Assembly (NCBI GenBank): GCA_051294375.1
Contig: JBJCIZ010001298.1
Location: forward strand, 1 to 10,196
Reading direction: 5' to 3'
DNA: 10,196 bases
Origin: Paraspadella gotoi
Taxonomy: Eukaryota > Animalia > Chaetognatha
Shown here piece after piece: positions 3,112 to 10,196 of the stretch (position 1 is its first letter; each line of letters begins with the position of its first letter). Under the pieces are notes generated by a model, which was not told the DNA's origin, ran no database searches, and saw only the letters and a program-made list of their open reading frames with translations. A program made the position numbers and the translations under genes.

Positions 3112-3600
3112 ATGAAAGAAGTACGGAAGGAAGAATGGAAGGAAGTACGGAAGGAAGGAAAGAAAAAAGGAAGGAAGGAAGGAAGGAAGGAAGGAAAGAA
3201 AAAAGGAAGGAAGGAAGGAAGGATTAAAAGAAATAAAGAGTGGAAAAAAGGAAAGAAAGAGAAAAATGAAGGAAAGAGGAAGATGAAATTAAAGAAAAAG
3301 GGATGTCAGGAGAGGAAAAAAGAAGAAAAAGGGTTTCAAGGAAAGGAAGAAAGAAAAAAGCTAGCAGAATTAATGATGGAAAACGAACGAACGAAAGATA
3401 AAAAAAGGGAAAAAAAGAAAAAAAAAGGAAAGACGGAAAAAAATAGGAGAGAAAAAAAAAAGAAACGGAATCTGAAAATGAATAAATGAATGAATCAACC
3501 AATGAATCAAAAATCAATTCAATAAACGCCAAAGGGAAAAAGAAATAAGTAAACAAGAAAGGAAACAAAGAAGGAAAGAAGGAAAGAAGAAAGAAAAATA
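3112..3600. repeat. (GAAG)n and A/G-rich low-complexity tract
   Basis: ggaaggaaggaa arrays grading into A-rich purine sequence. Confidence 0.9.
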
Positions 3601-3659
3601 GTTTTTACAAAAAGACTGAAAAACCAGCTAATACTGTGAAGTATACCTTAACAGTTGCA

Positions 3660-3910
3660 GCTGATTTTTGCCATTAAGAAATGTCTTGCGAAAGAGATAT
3701 TTGGAAACCTCCTAATCGCCATTTTTCAACGCCGCCAAAAAAGGAAAATCGTCCTCAACGTCTGGGTTCGAATCCAATTCCTTTCCTCGATAAAACTAAT
3801 ATTTTTTTGTCTTCAAAATGTAAAACCCCCTCTATCGAGATCAAGTGTTTTAAAGGCATCGATAAAACGACATCTTGCTTGTTACCAAGGTTGGTACTTC
3901 TTTTGTCTCC
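3660..3910 (-). pseudogene. Degraded EF-hand (calmodulin-superfamily, EFCAB2-like) coding fragment
   Basis: Across frameshifts: RQKKYQP..QDV.FIDAFKTLDLDRGG.LHFED.K..LSRKGIGFEP.VEDDF.LAALKNG, resembling the AFxxLDxxxxGxLxxEDLK EF-hand pattern. Confidence 0.4.
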
Positions 3911-4006
3911 TTGCAATTTTTGATAATTTTCAGCATCTGGACACTGGTTGCTCGTAACTTGTTTTAACAGGATTTTAAATTGTTTTTTTTTTCCCAAATA
4001 TATTAC

Positions 4007-4393
4007 CGTTTTATCACATCATTTGCATGTAGGTGGGACTTTCGTCCATTACTGTACAAGCACATATTGGCATTCGCTGTGTTAACGTGTAACCTTCAGT
4101 TCATCTAGTTTCGTCGTCGATTTTAACACTCTGATTTCATCCCAATAGGTTCATAAGTCTTTAATAAAAATTTTCTCGGGCTTCGATGACGTTCCTGGCG
4201 CCATGCCCGTCATAATAGATACCCTTTTTCTGGACATTGAGGACTAAATCCAGCGCGCGCATCCCAATTGGAATAGTTAGTTCTTTCGGATATTTGTCTT
4301 CAGGATTCAAGTTCCAGTTTCCATACTCATCCCTACCCAATTGGAAATATCATTTACATTTTAAAGCAGCTCGGTCAAATTTTGTGGATTTTC
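4007..4393 (-). pseudogene. Frameshifted duplicate of transposase exon 9086-9447
   Basis: Collinear with 9086-9447 and has the same splice sites, but carries many small indels that break the frame. Confidence 0.88.
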
Positions 4394-4413
4394 CTGTATG
4401 GGGAGAAAATAGA

Positions 4414-4696
4414 TTTTTAGCCGAGATCTGCCTAATGCCGTTCTCGTATCTCTTATGCTATATATCACTTGTCCGGTCGTCGGTCGCGCTCCACTAATTA
4501 AAAGTTTGTCGGTAAGTCACTTAAATCATGTCAGAACATCGAATTATGATAAATTAAATAAGTATAGGGACGATTGACTTGAAATTTTGTATATTAGTAG
4601 GAAACGTTGTATGATTGAGCTGGAAATCAAGTTTCAACGGAATCGTCTGAGTGGAAATGTAGTCGGGCATGGCCTAGGTTCACCCCGCCTATTAGT
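4414..4696 (+). mobile_element. HINE-like element B, duplicate copy
   Basis: Duplicate of 9464-9730, lying in the intron between transposase exons 5234 and 4393. Confidence 0.6.
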
Positions 4697-4699
4697 TGT

Positions 4700-4935
4700 G
4701 ACCCGGTGGCTCATTGAGTTAAGCCATCAGCTCATGGACCACTAGACGGGGTGGTACCGGTCAATCCCAACTCGGTACCTACCCTGCGGGAAGAGTGAGG
4801 CCGGCCGTAAGCCGCCTTGGGGGCGTGGCAAACCCTCAAGCCTGGTTCCAAGTCCAGGACCCGTTCCATGTCTGTCTAGAAGGGGTTATAGAAGTTATGG
4901 ATAGTCATCTTCTGCCCACTTAGCGCCTTATCCAC
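4700..4935 (+). mobile_element. tRNA-derived SINE-like element, duplicate copy
   Basis: Indel-rich duplicate of 9734-9970. Confidence 0.55.
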
Positions 4936-5233
4936 AGAAATTAAGTTTTTTAAATGGAAAAAAAAAATAATATGTTTTAATAATTGATTATGCTCTTTTA
5001 TATAAAATATATAAATGCAAGCTGCATTATTAATAAAATAATTATCAATTTATTATTTCATTAATCAGTTAATCCAATCAATCAATCAAATCGTCAACTG
5101 TTTGATTAATTAATCCATCAATCAATCATTTATCGTCTGGTGTTATCTTCGTCATCGTCGACATCATCGCCCGTCTATGCTTTTGTTGTGGTCAATTACA
5201 AATATTTTTAGAAAATCATCTCATTAAACACAC

Positions 5234-5724
5234 TTTTACAAATAATTTGAGCGCTGCACAAATAATCCGGATTGTCTTTCGGAGAAGGGGTTTTTCGGGT
5301 GGCGACCCCGTCGATCTTCTTTAATTTCCAATATTTTCTTCAAATTCCTTGACCCAACGTTCAATTGTTCTCGGATTAACATTGACAATGTTTGCAGCTG
5401 AAATCTCAATGCTCGATAGTTAAACCCCAAATTTCGGATTTTTCTTTTATGGTCTTGTAATAATGCGTGTTAATCCAATTGGTTTTTTTTCAATGTAAGA
5501 CATTTCATCGTAGGGTGATCCAATTTGTACCAAAGCTTCCAGAGCGAAATTTTTGTCGATCTGCCATTTTCGATGCAATTTTCATGGTAACTTTTTTGTC
5601 TCTGTTTCTTTTTTTGTGAACGCGAAAATTTTGATTTGTCCTGAATCTGGAGTTCATTTTTTGTTTTTGTCGCTTTTTTTTTTGGAAGCCAATAGCTGCT
5701 CTTCTGTCTCAGTCAGTAAATCTC
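5234..5724 (-). pseudogene. Frameshifted N-terminal (HTH-like) exon of the same transposase, copy 1; may extend to an acceptor at 6454
   Basis: Piecing frames together gives DKNFALEALVQIGSPYDEMSYIEK...YYKTIKEKSEIWGL...ISAANIVNVNPRTIERWVKEFEEN..IKEDRRGRHPK...LKLFVK. The phase-0 donor AAA|GTgtgt at 5233 matches the phase-0 acceptor at 4394. Several single-base indels are present. Confidence 0.75.
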
Positions 5725-6300
5725 TTGATCCCTCCGATCCATTCAATTCTCTCCGATCCATTCAATTCCTCTGATCCATTCAATTCCTCTGATCCATTCA
5801 ATTCCTCCGATCCATTCAATTCCTCCGATCCATTCAAATCCTTGATTCCATTCAAATCCTCTGATCCATTCAGTCCTCCGAATCTATCCAATTCCTCCGA
5901 CCATTCAATTCCTCCAATCCATTCAATTTCTCCGATCCATGGAATTCCTCCAATTATCCATTCAATTCCTCCAATCCATTCAATTCCTCCGATCCATCCA
6001 ATTCCTCCGATCCATCCAATTGCTCCAATCCATGGAATTCCTTCCAATCCATTCAATTCCTCCGATCCATGCAATATCTCCGCTCCATGCAATTTTCTCC
6101 GATTCTATCCAATTCCTCCGATCCATTCAATTCCTCCATTCCATTCAATATCCTCCGATCCATTCAATTCCTCCAATCCATTAAATTTTCTCCGAACCAT
6201 CCCAATTTCTCCGATCCATTCAATTCCTCCGATCCATGCAATATTCTCTGATCCATGCAATTTCTCTGATCCATCCAAAACCTCCAATTCATCCAATTCC
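5725..6300. repeat. 18-bp tandem repeat (consensus GATCCATTCAATTCCTCC), roughly 30 units
   Basis: Directly visible. It translates as (NGSEEL)n or (IEWIGG)n on minus and (SDPFNS)n or (IPPIHS)n on plus. Confidence 0.95.
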
Positions 6301-6527
6301 ACTTTCCGATGGTGCCATCAATTGGTTACGGGAATCACAGATTGATTGACGTCAAAGAGGGAGTCTTTCTATTGTCTGTAGTTATCTGTTCCGGTTTTTT
6401 TCTTTCTCAGCTGCCAACGATGAAGGAGAGCCAGATTTTATGATTTTCTGCGTCTAAAATTATTGTTTTTGCCGTGAGTTCCCTACTCTTTTTTCCAAAT
6501 TTCATCACTTCATATTAATTTTGTCAT

Positions 6528-6552
6528 NNNNNNNNNNNNNNNNNNNNNNNNN
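6528..6552. other. Assembly gap (25 N)
   Basis: Run of N. Confidence 1.
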
Positions 6553-7010
6553 ATCGGTTGCATTTAAAGAAAAAATTTTAAAAGAATAGATTTAACCAGA
6601 CCCTGTTCTTAACTGTTCTAATCTGCACTATCCTTAAAAATGGCTCTAATCGACACCGGGATTGAGCGCACGGTTTCTCGACTTAGAATAGTAGTTATTC
6701 CAATTCATAATAGCCTTCTTAATAATATACATACTGCTAGGGAACATTAACATATTTAGTAGTGGTTTTAAGCTCTAAACTGAGCAAATTCGACCATTTT
6801 AGTAGCGCAGCATATTGTCAGAGCAAGAGAAAAAAATAGCTATATCAGAAAGAGAAAACAACAGTGATTATTTAGTATATTATAAAAAGACATTCAATAA
6901 CATTTTGCCTATAAAATCTGATGGAAAATACCATTCTAAGTTTTGAATCACTACGGGTGTATGTTTCTTTGAAAAAACAATAAGCGTAATTAGTTAATAA
7001 TAATATTTAC

Positions 7011-7165
7011 CACGTGATTTTCCCGCTACATTTTTAATACGGAGGGTTTTGGCTACGTCTCTATAAGCACACTCGATTGGGGCGAGTTCTGGGTGAAACT
7101 TGGGTGTATATATCACCACATCTCCACGTTTCTCTGCTTCTTCTTCGACCATCGATTTTGAGGCT
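7011..7165 (-). CDS. Transposase exon carrying the third catalytic residue (PKFHPELAPIE)
   Basis: A 67-bp GT-AG intron (7232-7166) joins in phase (AA|A, Lys). It reads KASKSMVEEEAEKRGDVVIYTPKFHPELAPIECAYRDVAKTLR...; PKFHPELxPIE (7104-7072) corresponds to the IS630/Tc1 PxxSPDLNPIE motif. Donor G|GTaaat at 7010. Confidence 0.92.
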
Positions 7166-7232
7166 CTAAAATAATTTTAAACTTAATGAACATAAACGAT
7201 AAATAAGATTAAAAGTATTTGAAATTCTTCAC

Positions 7233-7383
7233 TTAAAATCTTCTTCTTTTTCAAGAAGGGCGACAAGGTCATCTTGTAAGAGACCCCTAACAGCTTCATC
7301 TCCAAAACGTTCGCGACAAATTTGCCGCAAACCTTTGGCTGTCCCAGCGTTTGCGCCATCCTCCCAAACCATTTTTTGGACAA
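7233..7383 (-). CDS. Transposase exon (insertion region between the second Asp and the Glu)
   Basis: AG| at 7384 and |GT at 7232. The frame is not in the ORF track: VQKMVWEDGANAGTAKGLRQICRERFGDEAVRGLLQDDLVALLEKEEDF, matching the QxMV...GxxKGLxQxxxER...LLxxxxDF motif of this transposase clade. Confidence 0.88.
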
Positions 7384-7518
7384 CTATTTAAAAAGCATCG
7401 GTAAATTGCATTTCAGGAATATTAAGGAAATTATTTCATGTAGATAAGACGCGATGTACAGTCCTGAGCAAAAAAATTGCGCCATTATGGTGGACTAAAA
7501 TCCACCAACCGTTCATCA

Positions 7519-7705
7519 GCGGCCATTGGTGCCGGAGGCAAGTCATTCGCCTCCCAACCCAAAGGTCCGGGGTTCTAGCCCGGTGGTCGTCTGGCAGTTA
7601 AGAGGGACGGGGCGCTTAACCCGCCTGTAACATGGTGTTACAGCCTGATCCGAAGCTCAGGGACTGCTTATATTGAACGGTTCTGTCACTAACACATAAC
7701 AATAA
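7519..7705 (+). mobile_element. tRNA(Gly-CCC)-derived SINE-like element or pseudo-tRNA with a structured 3' body
   Basis: 72-nt head: acceptor stem GCGGCCA (7519-7525) / TGGTCGT (7584-7590), TCGCCTCCCA as in tRNA-Gly(CCC), T arm CCGGG-GTTCTAG-CCCGG. The anticodon stem is broken. The body has several hairpins and ends in an AC/AT-rich tail. Confidence 0.6.
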
Positions 7706-7918
7706 TTACTGTCTCTTCATCATTTTATTTCAGAATTTTAAAAATCACCATATATACTTAAAAATTTTTAAAAATTGTAAAAATAAAGTTTATTAAAAAT
7801 TATGTTTGGTATAAATTTTATTAAAATTGGGCCATCCCTTAAGGAGTAGTAATTTTTTTAAATGAAATATTTTACCGCAAAGCTGATTATAAAAAAGCCT
7901 GACAGATTTAAGATTAAC

Positions 7919-8104
7919 NNNNNNNNNNNNNNNNNNNNNNNNNNNNNNNNNNNNNNNNNNNNNNNNNNNNNNNNNNNNNNNNNNNNNNNNNNNNNNNNNN
8001 NNNNNNNNNNNNNNNNNNNNNNNNNNNNNNNNNNNNNNNNNNNNNNNNNNNNNNNNNNNNNNNNNNNNNNNNNNNNNNNNNNNNNNNNNNNNNNNNNNNN
8101 NNNN
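7919..8104. other. Assembly gap (186 N), probably hiding the second catalytic Asp of the transposase
   Basis: Run of N interrupting the exon that starts at 8171. Confidence 1.
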
Positions 8105-8171
8105 CGCCGTCATAACAAGCGTTCCCAACGATTTAGGAGACGGAAAAATTCCGTCGCCGAGAGACCAGCAA
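8105..8171 (-). CDS. Next transposase exon, running into the N gap
   Basis: Acceptor ttttatttAG|T at 8172 completes CG+T (Arg) in phase with the 9086 exon. It reads R-CWSLGDGIFPSPKSLGTLVMTA, the W...PKxxGxxxMxx motif expected right after the first catalytic Asp. Confidence 0.85.
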
Positions 8172-8655
8172 CTAAATAAAAATCAATGATTACATTTTTA
8201 ACAGGATATGCTTACTGCAGATCCCGGCTCTACGATTCACTTTGTCAGTCAGTCAGTCACACCCCAAAATATTATCCCTGAAGTTATGTCAGAACTTCAA
8301 ATTATGATAAATTATGCAAAAAAATCGATGTCCGTGAAATTGTCCAAGTGGTAATAAGTTTAATGGAAAAAAAGCCATTTCATTATTTTATTTTGCTTTT
8401 TTTCTTTTTTATTAAGTAATTTATTTATTATCTAAATAATTAATTTATTAATTAAATGATTATCTTATCAGCTGCCTACCGCAAATGATAGTGAAACTGT
8501 TTCACTATTTGATTATGTAAGAGATGACTATTTGATATGATCCTAAATAAGATTGAGATATTGTAGTATTGAACTTGAATGGGCTTATTTTCATTCTGGA
8601 TTTCAATATTAGTTCTATTTTTCAGTTTTTAAGTAGTTATTTATAGTCTAGTTGG

Positions 8656-8827
8656 GTGGAGAAGGCCGTGCGGCTCTCGAGACTCGAACTCGAATACTAA
8701 ATGCGTGTGGGGAAACGTTGAGTGGCATGACGACATCGAAAAGTTGGATCTGGAGGCGAGGGTTGCTGCAGCAGTTTTCCTCGTCAATCTCATGCGGCAC
8801 ATGGAAACAAATATTTTCAAGCGTTGA
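8656..8827 (+). pseudogene. ATPAF2: Degraded 3' coding fragment of ATP12/ATPAF2 (mitochondrial F1-ATPase assembly chaperone)
   Basis: VEKAVRLSRLELEY*MR /frameshift/ VWGNVEWHDDIEKLDLEARVAAAVFLVNL...KR* parallels the ATPAF2 C-terminus as recalled (VEQAVLLSRLEEEYQIQKWGNIEWAHDYELQELRARTAAGTLFIHL). TAA at 8698-8700 sits where Gln is expected. Confidence 0.85.
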
Positions 8828-8965
8828 AGGCGGCGGAGAATTGGTTTAGACTTAGGACGGGTGTGGCGCTGCCGATTCGTCAATTTAGACTGTGATTCTT
8901 CACGTTATCGTCGGGGATGTACGTTTGATGTTTTTACAAAACGACCTCAAAAAATTGAAGTTTAA

Positions 8966-8996
8966 ATAATTAATTAATTAATTAATTAATTAATTA
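8966..8996. repeat. (TAAT)n microsatellite inside element A
   Basis: taattaattaattaaattaattaattaatta. Confidence 0.85.
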
Positions 8997-9085
8997 CTGC
9001 TAATGATCGTAGGCAGATCTGACACTGGTTGCTCGAACTTGTTTTTACAGGATTTTAAAATTTTTTTTTTTCCCAAATATATTAC

Positions 9086-9447
9086 CGTTTTATCACATCA
9101 TTTGAGTGGTGGGACTTTTCGTCCATACTGACAAGCACATATTTGGCATTCGCTGTTGGTAACACTTCAAGTTCATCAGTTTCGTCGTCGATTTTAACAC
9201 TCTGATTTCTCCAATAGTCATAAGTCTTTAAAAAATTTTCTCGGGCTTCGATGACGTCCTGGCGCTCATGCCCGTCATAATAGATACCCTTTTTCTGGAC
9301 ATTGAGACTAAATCCCAGCGCGCGCATCCAATTGGAAATAGTTCTTTCGGAATATTTGTCTTCAGGTTCAAGTTCCAGTTTCCTACTAACCCAATTGGAA
9401 ATATCTTTACAGTTTAAAGCAGCTCCGGTCAAATTTTGTGGATTTTC
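9086..9447 (-). CDS. Internal exon of a spliced IS630/Tc1/mariner-like DDE transposase (second HTH, GHER motif, first catalytic Asp)
   Basis: Acceptor ttttctctacAG|GAA at 9448 (phase 0); donor CG|GTaata at 9085 (phase 2). Open frame ENPQNLTGAALNCKDISNWV...SERTISNWMRALGF...KKGIYYDGHERQDVIEARENFL...VLVSMDEKSHHSND matches the KKGxYxDGHERxDVxxxR and DE..F/H..ND motifs of eukaryotic IS630-like transposases. Confidence 0.9.
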
Positions 9448-9463
9448 CTGTAGAGAAAATAGA

Positions 9464-9730
9464 TTTTTAGCCGGATCTGCCTAATGCCGTTCTCGGCTCT
9501 ATAATTCACTTTGTCGGTCCGTCGGTCGCGCCCTAAAAGTTTGTCGGTAAGTCACTTAAATCATGTCAGAACATCGAATTATGATAAATTAAATAAGTAT
9601 AGGAGACGATTGACTTGAAATTTTGTATATTAGTAGGAAAGTGTATGATTGAGCTGGAAATCAAGTTTCAACGGAATCGTCTGAGTGGAAATGTAGTCGG
9701 GCATGGCCTAGGTTCACCCCGCCTATTAGT
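9464..9730 (+). mobile_element. HINE-like element B, 5' part; same family as element A, 3' end not seen
   Basis: tttttagccggatctgcctaatgccgttctcggctctataattcacttt-gtcggtccgtcggtc aligns with 8195-8260, and atgtcagaacatcgaattatgataaatta aligns with about 8286-8314. Internal inverted repeat AGACGATT (9604-9611) / AATCGTCT (9675-9682). Confidence 0.65.
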
Positions 9731-9733
9731 TGT

Positions 9734-9970
9734 GACCCGGTGGCTCATTGAGTAAAGCCATCAGCTCATGACCACTAGGTACCGGGTTCAATCCCAACCC
9801 GGTACCTACCCTGCGGGAAGAGTGAGGCCGGCCGTAAGCCGCCTTGGGGGCGTGGCAAACCCTCAAGCCTGGTTCCAAGTCCAGGACCCGTTCCATGTCT
9901 GCTAGAAGGGGTTATAGAAGTTATGGATAGTCATCTTCTGCCCACTTAGCGCCTTATCCACAGAAATAAG
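9734..9970 (+). mobile_element. tRNA-derived SINE-like element (Met-like head); 3' end approximate
   Basis: A-box-like TGGCTCATTGAG, CTCATGA anticodon-loop remnant and B box GGTTCAATCCC (9785-9795). The anticodon stem does not pair. A GC-rich hairpin body is followed by an A-rich tract. Confidence 0.6.
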
Positions 9971-10196
9971 TTTAAATGGAAAAAAAAAATAATATGTTTT
10001 AATAATTGATTATGCTCTTTTATATAAAATATAAATGCAAGCTGCATTATTAATAAAATAATTATCAATTTATTATTTCATTAATCAGTTAATCCAATCA
10101 ATCAATCAAATCGTCAACTGTTTGATTAATTAATCCATCAATCAATCATTTATCGTCGGTGTTATCTTCGTCATCGTCGACATCATCGCCGTCTAT

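What the first reader, a model, noticed from the sequence alone, without database searches (positions are those of the whole stretch)
8195..9046. HINE/Helentron-like element enclosing an ATP12/ATPAF2 fragment: candidate gene capture nested in a transposase intron
Seen: DINE-1-like 5' and 3' ends bracket 850 bp that contain a same-strand ATP12 C-terminal fragment with a stop and a frameshift. Excising 8200-9046 leaves a 67-bp intron, the same size as intron 7166-7232. Established: Helitrons and Helentrons capture host gene fragments and insert in T-rich sites. Inference: this was a single insertion of an element carrying a piece of a mitochondrial assembly-factor gene.
Basis: partly seen in the sequence, partly recalled or inferred. 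Interest (0 to 1): 0.75.

Follow-up and report, generated by a model that had tools for sequence, protein, structure and literature searches.

The report
Dead ATP12 piece inside intronic Helentron
A broken 285-base copy of the end of the mitochondrial assembly gene ATP12 sits inside a DINE-1-like repeat within a spliced-out intron of a transposase gene; it was likely pasted in once by template-switch copying and was not seen to multiply, so this is an ordinary, likely functionless case of a known kind of gene capture.

Summary
8650-8934 is the 3' end of ATP12 (63% identity to PF07542 proteins), with a real stop and 2-nt deletion: a DNA run matches the window exactly and holds a separate open-frame parent, 32 substitutions in 281 nt. 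It lies between DINE-1/HINE-type ends (subTIRs pair 9 of 11) in a 914-nt GT-AG intron that RNA-like contigs skip exactly; removing 847 nt leaves 67 nt. The capture starts mid-exon, ends inside the 3' UTR, has no poly(A) or target duplication, and replaces the body that other copies carry: a filler/template-switch pattern. Its decay (about 9% per lineage) matches this HINE copy's distance from its relatives (about 9%), so capture was likely near the time of insertion. But no second cargo-bearing copy, no empty site and no contig joining body to 3' end were seen, so transposition with cargo is not shown. Helentron gene-fragment capture is published. The host is a transcribed, multi-intron, Sailor-like transposase at sub-diploid depth. 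3931-5178 is likely an assembly artefact. Interest low.

The parts
8172..9085 (-). 914-nt GT..AG intron of the host transposase gene; holds the whole element
   Evidence: ends, in-frame join; table 5 (8171->9086 skipped in X5 and X6)
8197..9043 (+). HINE/DINE-1-like element, 847 nt with cargo; ends slide in T-runs (equivalently 8200-9046)
   Evidence: high summed depth at 8197-8335, 8473-8649 and 8979-9043
8205..8215 (+). 5' subterminal inverted repeat; folds back on a short inverted repeat at 8217-8225
   Evidence: 9 of 11 to the 3' subTIR; hairpin, -5.5 kcal/mol for 8200-8240
8244..8259 (+). (GTCA)4 microsatellite of GTCY type
   Evidence: sequence
8286..8335 (+). core block shared with a very abundant repeat family; other copies continue with (CCGT)n
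   Evidence: tables 2 and 7; also at 9552-9591
8336..8487 (.). AT-rich 152 nt not found in the other copy that joins 8335 to 8488; second internal rearrangement
   Evidence: tables 5, 5c; (21% GC)
8488..8649 (+). element body, moderately repeated; other copies go on past 8640-8650 with a different sequence
   Evidence: tables 7 and 8
8650..8934 (+). captured ATP12/ATPAF2 piece: coding 8650-8827 (starts mid-exon; premature TAA 8698-8700; 2-nt deletion behind 8704; natural stop 8825-8827) plus 3' UTR 8828-8934
   Evidence: protein; parent contig, flanks
8935..8996 (.). 27-nt spacer of unknown origin and (TTAA)n tract 8962-8996; no poly(A)
9009..9019 (+). 3' subterminal inverted repeat
   Evidence: 9 of 11 to 8205-8215, 10 of 11 to 9474-9484 of the neighbouring element
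9022..9042 (+). weak 3' stem-loop
   Evidence: -0.8 kcal/mol, DNA parameters
9086..9447 (-). host transposase exon (HTH region to first catalytic D)
   Evidence: matched with 0 differences by the spliced contig
8105..8171 (-). next host exon, running into the N gap
6994..7390 (-). last two host exons around the 67-nt intron 7166-7232; hold the catalytic E motif

Best explanation
The ATP12 piece at 8650-8934 is a broken copy lying between DINE-1-like ends in a spliced intron, and it was likely copied once into the interior of a single non-autonomous Helentron (HINE) by template-switch (filler) synthesis, likely at about the time this copy landed. Steps: (1, shown) the host intron is GT..AG, 914 nt, and is skipped in RNA-like contigs, so the transposase frame is unharmed. 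(2, inferred) a HINE inserted into the T-run of a 67-nt intron without target duplication. (3, shown) the cargo starts mid-exon, ends in the 3' UTR and stands where other copies have further body sequence; (inferred) a broken or replicating element end invaded the ATP12 locus, copied about 285 nt and returned to the element's 3' part. (4, shown) the copy has a stop, a frameshift and about half the synonymous rate at nonsynonymous sites against the parent; (inferred) it has decayed neutrally since. (5, shown within the runs laid) no second cargo-bearing copy. Whether the fill happened during the insertion or shortly after it is about even.
For: Parent flank before 8654 is the same coding sequence in DNA run X1 and RNA-like runs X5, X8, so the breakpoint is inside an exon; the window shares the parent's AGTT from 8650 and a possible 2-nt AG microhomology with the element body. 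After 8934 the parent goes on for 45 (X5), 94 (X8), 169 (X6) and 819 (X1) letters, unlike the window; no poly(A) and no flanking repeat above 7 nt, and that one starts 25 nt outside the cargo. All 6 other body contigs laid in X1 stop matching at 8636-8650; the 5 loose ends shown for them are not ATP12. One other copy joins 8335 to 8488 in X1 and X4, tying the 5' block to the body. Rough abundance of 5' and 3' ends: 220 and 227 in X1, 379 and 166 in X4 (from summed depths). Ages: pN 9.1% (4.5-16.1), pS 17.6% (6.0-36.5), UTR 15.6% (8.3-25.6); this copy against the majority of other copies 8.9% (7 of 79 sites; 3.6-17.4). Two mismatches in 11 subTIR pairs has probability 0.26-0.58 at this age. Cargo contig depth 36.9 equals the adjacent unique exon 37.9, so no collapsed copies. 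[quoted passage not shown]
Against: No contig was seen joining body to the 3' end; the tool dropped one joint and 15 loose ends at the repeats 8375-8462 and 8958-9003, where such a joint would lie. No empty site in 4 of 4 runs laid over it. The 3' subTIR matches the neighbouring element's 5' end (10 of 11) better than its own (9 of 11), and 8469-8479 also matches it at 9 of 11. The origin of 8935-8961 is unknown, so the 3' junction cannot be read for microhomology. Age intervals are wide, 5 of the 32 differences were not listed, and contigs drop rare variants. No genome was available.
Confidence: 0.6

Rival explanations
1. Classical transduction: the piece was captured in a donor element elsewhere, and the cargo-bearing HINE then transposed here as a unit; donor and sister copies are lost or lie on unsampled haplotypes.
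For: Cargo age matches element age; a Culex Helentron with broken histone pieces has 8 copies (PMC4067079, passages); haplotype-specific DNA is plausible at this locus (depth).
Against: Only window copy and parent laid at 80% likeness in X1; parent only in X4, X5, X6, X8; window-type only in X7.
Confidence: 0.17
2. Compound site: a 5'-part of one HINE and the 3' end of another, with the ATP12 piece brought in by a rearrangement between them (or beside one of them), all in the same T-run.
For: subTIRs not identical; two internal rearrangements; a second subTIR-like match at 8469-8479; ACAGGAT follows the T-run at both ends; no body-to-3' joint seen.
Against: The 5' block joins the body in another copy; end abundances are alike; the residue is a clean 67-nt intron; orientation and order are those of one DINE-1.
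Confidence: 0.12
3. RNA-templated origin: a doubly truncated retrocopy or cDNA patch of ATP12 mRNA landed inside the HINE.
For: The piece is purely exonic and spans no parent intron (one unbroken match in DNA contig), so an RNA template cannot be excluded.
Against: No poly(A), no target duplication, 3' end lies inside the UTR, body sequence is replaced rather than interrupted.
Confidence: 0.09
4. Assembly error: the stop and frameshift are read errors, or the join is chimeric.
For: The same window holds an error-rich duplicate (3931-5178) and N gaps.
Against: X1 contigs match 8105-8246, 8463-8957 and 9004-9460 with 0 differences; X4 (another sample) matches 8105-8309, 8463-8542, 9005-9460; X7 carries the window's version of the cargo; the parent is a separate contig. 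No single contig spans the whole element.
Confidence: 0.02

Closest known systems
DINE-1 / HINE non-autonomous Helentrons (Thomas et al. 2014, PMC4067079; passages and section 17 read, supplements not)
   Same: subTIRs, short inverted repeat beside the 5' subTIR, core, microsatellite, 3' stem-loop, T-rich site, no coding capacity of its own
   Different: subTIRs pair only 9 of 11, stem-loop weak, interior rearranged; that paper found no protein-coding fragments in mite Helentrons or HINEs; no autonomous partner could be sought here
Helentron-Cq-32A of Culex with histone H4 and H15-family fragments (PMC4067079, passages)
   Same: Captured gene pieces of similar size and divergence (244 bp at 84%) with stops and frameshifts
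   Different: That element is Rep/Hel-type and present in 8 copies; this one is non-autonomous and the cargo was seen once
Filler-DNA capture in insect Hel1 Helitrons (PMC6544945, passages) and single-copy Pack-TIRs (PMC8277862, passages)
   Same: Cargo internal to the element, mid-gene breakpoints, at most 2-nt microhomology, single copy
   Different: Hel1 are canonical Helitrons and amplified after capture; Pack-TIRs are cut-and-paste elements; distance to the parent gene (cis bias) could not be tested
Sailor (DD78-111E) IS630-Tc1-mariner transposases (PMC8533490, passages and section 15), for the host gene
   Same: Long D-E spacer in the closest relative found (P0001, 111 residues); E motif PELAPIE against HCELNPIEL; weak DDE_3 and HTH_33 hits
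   Different: At least four introns with nested insertions; the second D lies in or near the N gap; ends, TSD and tree not tested

Membership tests
HINE / DINE-1 (non-autonomous Helentron) | paired subterminal inverted repeats of 11-15 bp | tested here: inconclusive
   8205-8215 pairs with 9009-9019 at 9 of 11; expected decay at this age, but not the identity used to define families in PMC4067079
HINE / DINE-1 (non-autonomous Helentron) | short inverted repeat next to the 5' subTIR, core and GTCY microsatellite | tested here: met
   hairpin 8204-8225; (GTCA)4 8244-8259; abundant core 8286-8335 followed by (CCGT)n in other copies
HINE / DINE-1 (non-autonomous Helentron) | stem-loop near the 3' end | tested here: inconclusive
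   9022-9042 folds at only -0.8 kcal/mol; other copies stop matching at 9043
HINE / DINE-1 (non-autonomous Helentron) | insertion in T-rich site without target duplication | tested here: inconclusive
   T-runs on both sides and a 67-nt residue, but no empty site in 4 runs and a 7-nt repeat ACAGGAT at both ends
HINE / DINE-1 (non-autonomous Helentron) | interspersed multi-copy family | tested here: met
   summed depth about 200 times single-copy at both ends in X1 (rough)
HINE / DINE-1 (non-autonomous Helentron) | autonomous Rep/Helicase/endonuclease partner with the same ends | not testable with these tools
   no genome held; motifs absent from metagenome contigs
Helentron gene transduction (Pack-type) | host gene fragment inside the element, parent elsewhere | tested here: met
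Helentron gene transduction (Pack-type) | cargo amplified by transposition (two or more dispersed copies) | tested here: not met
   one cargo contig plus parent in X1; none further in X4-X8; contigs show presence, not strict absence
Processed retrocopy | poly(A) tail and target duplication | tested here: not met
Processed retrocopy | loss of parent introns | tested here: inconclusive
   the piece spans no intron in the parent DNA contig
Sailor / ITm transposase (host gene) | DD78-111E spacer | tested here: inconclusive
   window gap hides the middle; relative P0001 has 111; three exons align to P0001 at 33-39%
Sailor / ITm transposase (host gene) | TIRs and TA/TATA duplication; placement in the Sailor clade | not tested
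   5' end of the gene is not in the accurate part of the window; no reference Sailor sequences were in hand

The most novel reading that the evidence does not exclude
The mobile carrier today is not the HINE but the host: an intron-rich Sailor-like cut-and-paste transposon, present on only some haplotypes, that stays transcribed and in frame because splicing removes its passengers, so an old HINE with a captured ATP12 piece hitchhikes inside an active transposon; and the ACAGGAT after the 3' end is a rolling-circle read-through scar from the same replication round that picked up the cargo.
Probability: 0.15. Interest if true: 0.5.

Novelty: new member of a known kind. Interest (0 to 1): 0.25.

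Why it matters
It adds a well-resolved example of gene-fragment capture inside a non-autonomous Helentron, a group in which PMC4067079 found few captures, with parent, breakpoints and relative age readable. It supports internal template switching over end bypass for this element type. The cargo is dead and spliced out, so no new function follows. One search for ATPAF2 with Helitron gave 0 papers; no search was made under other gene names. The host transposase (multi-intron, transcribed, sub-diploid depth) may deserve more attention than the cargo.

Tried and rejected
Pfam does not hit the fragment (PF07542 covers the N-terminal half). PDB search: 0 hits. Word-based protein search with the 40-aa piece: 0 of 7 candidates. 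Atlas: only a 0.76 unnamed hit. Pairwise BLAST of the 14-aa upstream frame to P0002: no alignment (found against other ATP12s). The parent protein was not among 7 relatives of P0002, so its locus could not be fetched. Two HINE motifs: 0 matches in metagenome contigs. Rfam: 2 sub-threshold matches, neither in the finding. No RNA holder is on record; X5, X6 and X8 are judged RNA-like from depth ratios only, and X5 and X6 look like one data set. Rejected: that the 0.00 word share of X7 and X8 shows absence (X7 is C-to-T converted and carries the window's version; X8 is RNA-like). Rejected: that the AG before 8647 is the parent's splice acceptor (parent flank is coding). Rejected: GTTTTTA at 8625 and 8930 as target duplication (the first lies in shared element body). 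Earlier-findings look-ups near this place, by sequence and by words gave nothing.

Full report
Approach. No genome is held for this window. I used the window itself, protein searches, and contigs of public runs that hold the stretch (8 runs listed, 6 holding part of it; 6 of the 8 were laid, X1, X4, X5, X6 on 8105-9460 and X1, X5, X7, X8 on 8600-8957, both at 80% likeness). X1 may be the source of the assembly, so it confirms letters but is not independent.

The cargo is ATP12. The frame 8705-8824 finds 3 proteins at E<=0.001 among 1.84 billion; the best, P0002, matches at 63% over 38 residues, and P0002 and P0003 carry PF07542; members of the P0003 cluster are named ATP synthase mitochondrial F1 complex assembly factor 2. 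The frame 8656-8697 matches three further ATP12 relatives at 11 of 14 residues. In X1 one contig equals the window over 8463-8957, and a second (6622 nt) matches 8654-8934 with 32 other letters and 2 gap letters; it has CAG for the window's TAA and two more letters behind 8704. The same parent version is in X4, X5, X6 and X8; X7, a C-to-T converted library, carries the window's version. Stop and frameshift are therefore real, and the parent is a separate gene.

Breakpoints. The 30 letters before 8654 in the parent are identical in DNA run X1 and RNA-like X5 and X8 and read as coding sequence, so the capture starts inside an exon; the window shares four more letters from 8650 and has a G-run two shorter. 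Element copies continue after 8649 with TTAG, so at most a 2-nt microhomology exists. After 8934 the parent goes on as non-A-rich sequence for 45 to 169 letters in RNA-like contigs. There is no poly(A) and no target duplication. The piece spans no parent intron, so a DNA template is likely but an RNA template is not excluded.

The element. 8197-8335 has the DINE-1 layout described in PMC4067079 (passages): subTIR 8205-8215, fold-back repeat 8217-8225, (GTCA)4, and a core present at roughly 8000 times single-copy depth. One other copy, seen in X1 and X4, joins 8335 to 8488 through a (CCGT)n tract, which ties the 5' block to the body and shows that 8336-8487 is a private rearrangement. Six other body contigs in X1 stop matching at 8636-8650 and the loose ends shown differ from the window, so the cargo replaces body sequence. 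The 3' end has a subTIR at 9009-9019 that pairs 9 of 11 with the 5' one, and a weak stem-loop; other copies stop matching at 9043. 5' and 3' ends are about equally abundant (220 and 227 in X1; 379 and 166 in X4; summed depth, rough). Against one element: no contig joining body to 3' end was listed (rows at the TTAA tract were dropped by the tool), the 3' subTIR fits the neighbouring element at 9474 better (10 of 11), and 8469-8479 also scores 9 of 11. I put one element at about 0.85.

The site. 8172-9085 is a GT..AG intron on the minus strand whose removal keeps the transposase frame. A 2090-nt contig in X5 and X6 skips it exactly and stops matching at 9447, the next AG acceptor. X5 is a guessed RNA run and X6 a guessed DNA run; their near-identical depths suggest one data set, and the repeat's 5' end is at 7 times ATP12 depth in X5 against about 220 in X1, so I read both as RNA. 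Removing 847 nt leaves 67 nt, the size of intron 7166-7232. That shows that everything between is inserted, not that it came in one event. No empty-site joint appeared in 4 of 4 runs.

Copy number and age. At 8657-8932 the depth in X1 is exactly parent plus window copy (95.8 + 36.9), and the window copy equals the adjacent unique exon (37.9), so there is no further cargo copy, diverged or collapsed, among these contigs. Using the 27 of 32 differences that were listed, the cargo differs from the parent at 9.1% of nonsynonymous sites, 17.6% of synonymous sites and 15.6% of UTR sites, the pattern of a neutrally decaying copy against a constrained gene, and about 8-9% per lineage; the 5' block differs from the majority of other copies at 7 of 79 sites, 8.9%. 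The intervals are wide, but capture and insertion look about coeval.

Mechanism. Internal position, mid-exon breakpoint and loss of body sequence argue against end bypass and for filler DNA by template switching, the reading given to internal captures in PMC6544945 (passages). PMC8277862 (passages) reports that single-copy captures in animal TIR elements mostly come from gap filling without transposition; that is an analogy, not a test. The matching ages pull the other way, towards capture in the replication round that made this copy. I give 0.6 to a one-off template switch into a single HINE at about the time of insertion, 0.17 to capture in a donor followed by transposition, 0.12 to a compound site, 0.09 to an RNA template and 0.02 to artefact. 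The cargo has no start, is antisense to the host transcript and is spliced out, so function is unlikely (inference).

Host gene and window quality. Three exons align to P0001, a DDE_3-type protein with a 111-residue D-E spacer, within the Sailor range in PMC8533490 (passages and section 15); membership was not tested by tree or ends. The gene shows no second copy or allele at 80% and lies at 0.3-0.4 (X1) and 0.12-0.17 (X4) of single-copy depth. An earlier unchecked note calls the genome a likely arrow worm (e1-10588039; not tested). If so, haplotype-specific mobile DNA is documented (PMC2997562, passages) and a sex chromosome is unlikely, as chaetognaths are hermaphrodites (recalled). 3931-5178 repeats 9014-10196 with 91 gap columns and 6 substitutions and is likely raw-read gap fill; it does not touch the cargo.

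Novelty. Helentron capture of broken gene pieces is published (Culex histones, 8 copies; PMC4067079), although that study found none in mite HINEs. One search for ATPAF2 with Helitron gave 0 papers. No supplements were read; element tables in those of PMC4067079 and PMC8533490 could bear on family assignment. Verdict: real, new member of a known kind, interest 0.25.

Noticed in passing
window 3931-5178 against 9014-10196: Direct duplicate with 1164 identical columns, 91 gap columns and only 6 substitutions; the 9014 copy keeps the reading frame and matches X1 exactly, no second contig was laid and depth is not raised. Likely a raw long-read gap fill (25 N at 6528-6552); 5179-6527 is then likely the true continuation beyond 10196.
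   Followed up: partly
window 6994-9447 and 5150-6520, minus strand: Sailor-like transposase gene with at least four introns, spliced in RNA-like contigs, no second copy or allele at 80% likeness in 4 runs; contig depth 0.29-0.39 of single-copy level in X1 and 0.12-0.17 in X4 (rough). Fits a haplotype-specific insertion; domestication or recent movement not settled.
   Followed up: partly
window 5731-6300: 31 copies of an 18-nt repeat that read as a hexapeptide repeat (GSEELN-like) in the transposase N-terminal region, in error-rich sequence.
   Followed up: no
window 8698-8866 in run X7: A 175-nt contig at depth 4 has 27 differences, the window has 27 C there (11 in CpG), and all 22 counted changes are C to T: a converted library, with the cargo apparently unmethylated. 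Weak; of note if the animal methylates transposons as described in PMC12460157 (passages).
   Followed up: partly
window 8201-8207 and 9047-9053: ACAGGAT follows a T-run at the element's 5' start and again just after its 3' end; chance per position about 6e-5 before allowing for the search. Read-through scar, target mimicry, a remnant of an older copy, or chance.
   Followed up: partly
window 9466-~9730 and 9731-~9920: A second DINE-1-like element (74% identity to the first over 132 columns) in the next intron (acceptor at 9448), followed by a tRNA-like SINE-looking stretch (my reading of the sequence; no Rfam match).
   Followed up: no
window 7436-7700: Another SINE-looking GC-rich insert in the intron between exon 7233-7390 and the N gap (my reading; untested).
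   Followed up: no
parent ATP12 contigs in X5 and X6: The RNA-like contigs are 5060 and 5184 nt, with over 4.7 kb upstream of the matched end, far longer than an ATP12 mRNA; possibly fused or operon neighbours.
   Followed up: no
window 3600-3930: Coding-looking minus-strand sequence with frame breaks just left of the duplicate's junction; no Pfam hit.
   Followed up: partly
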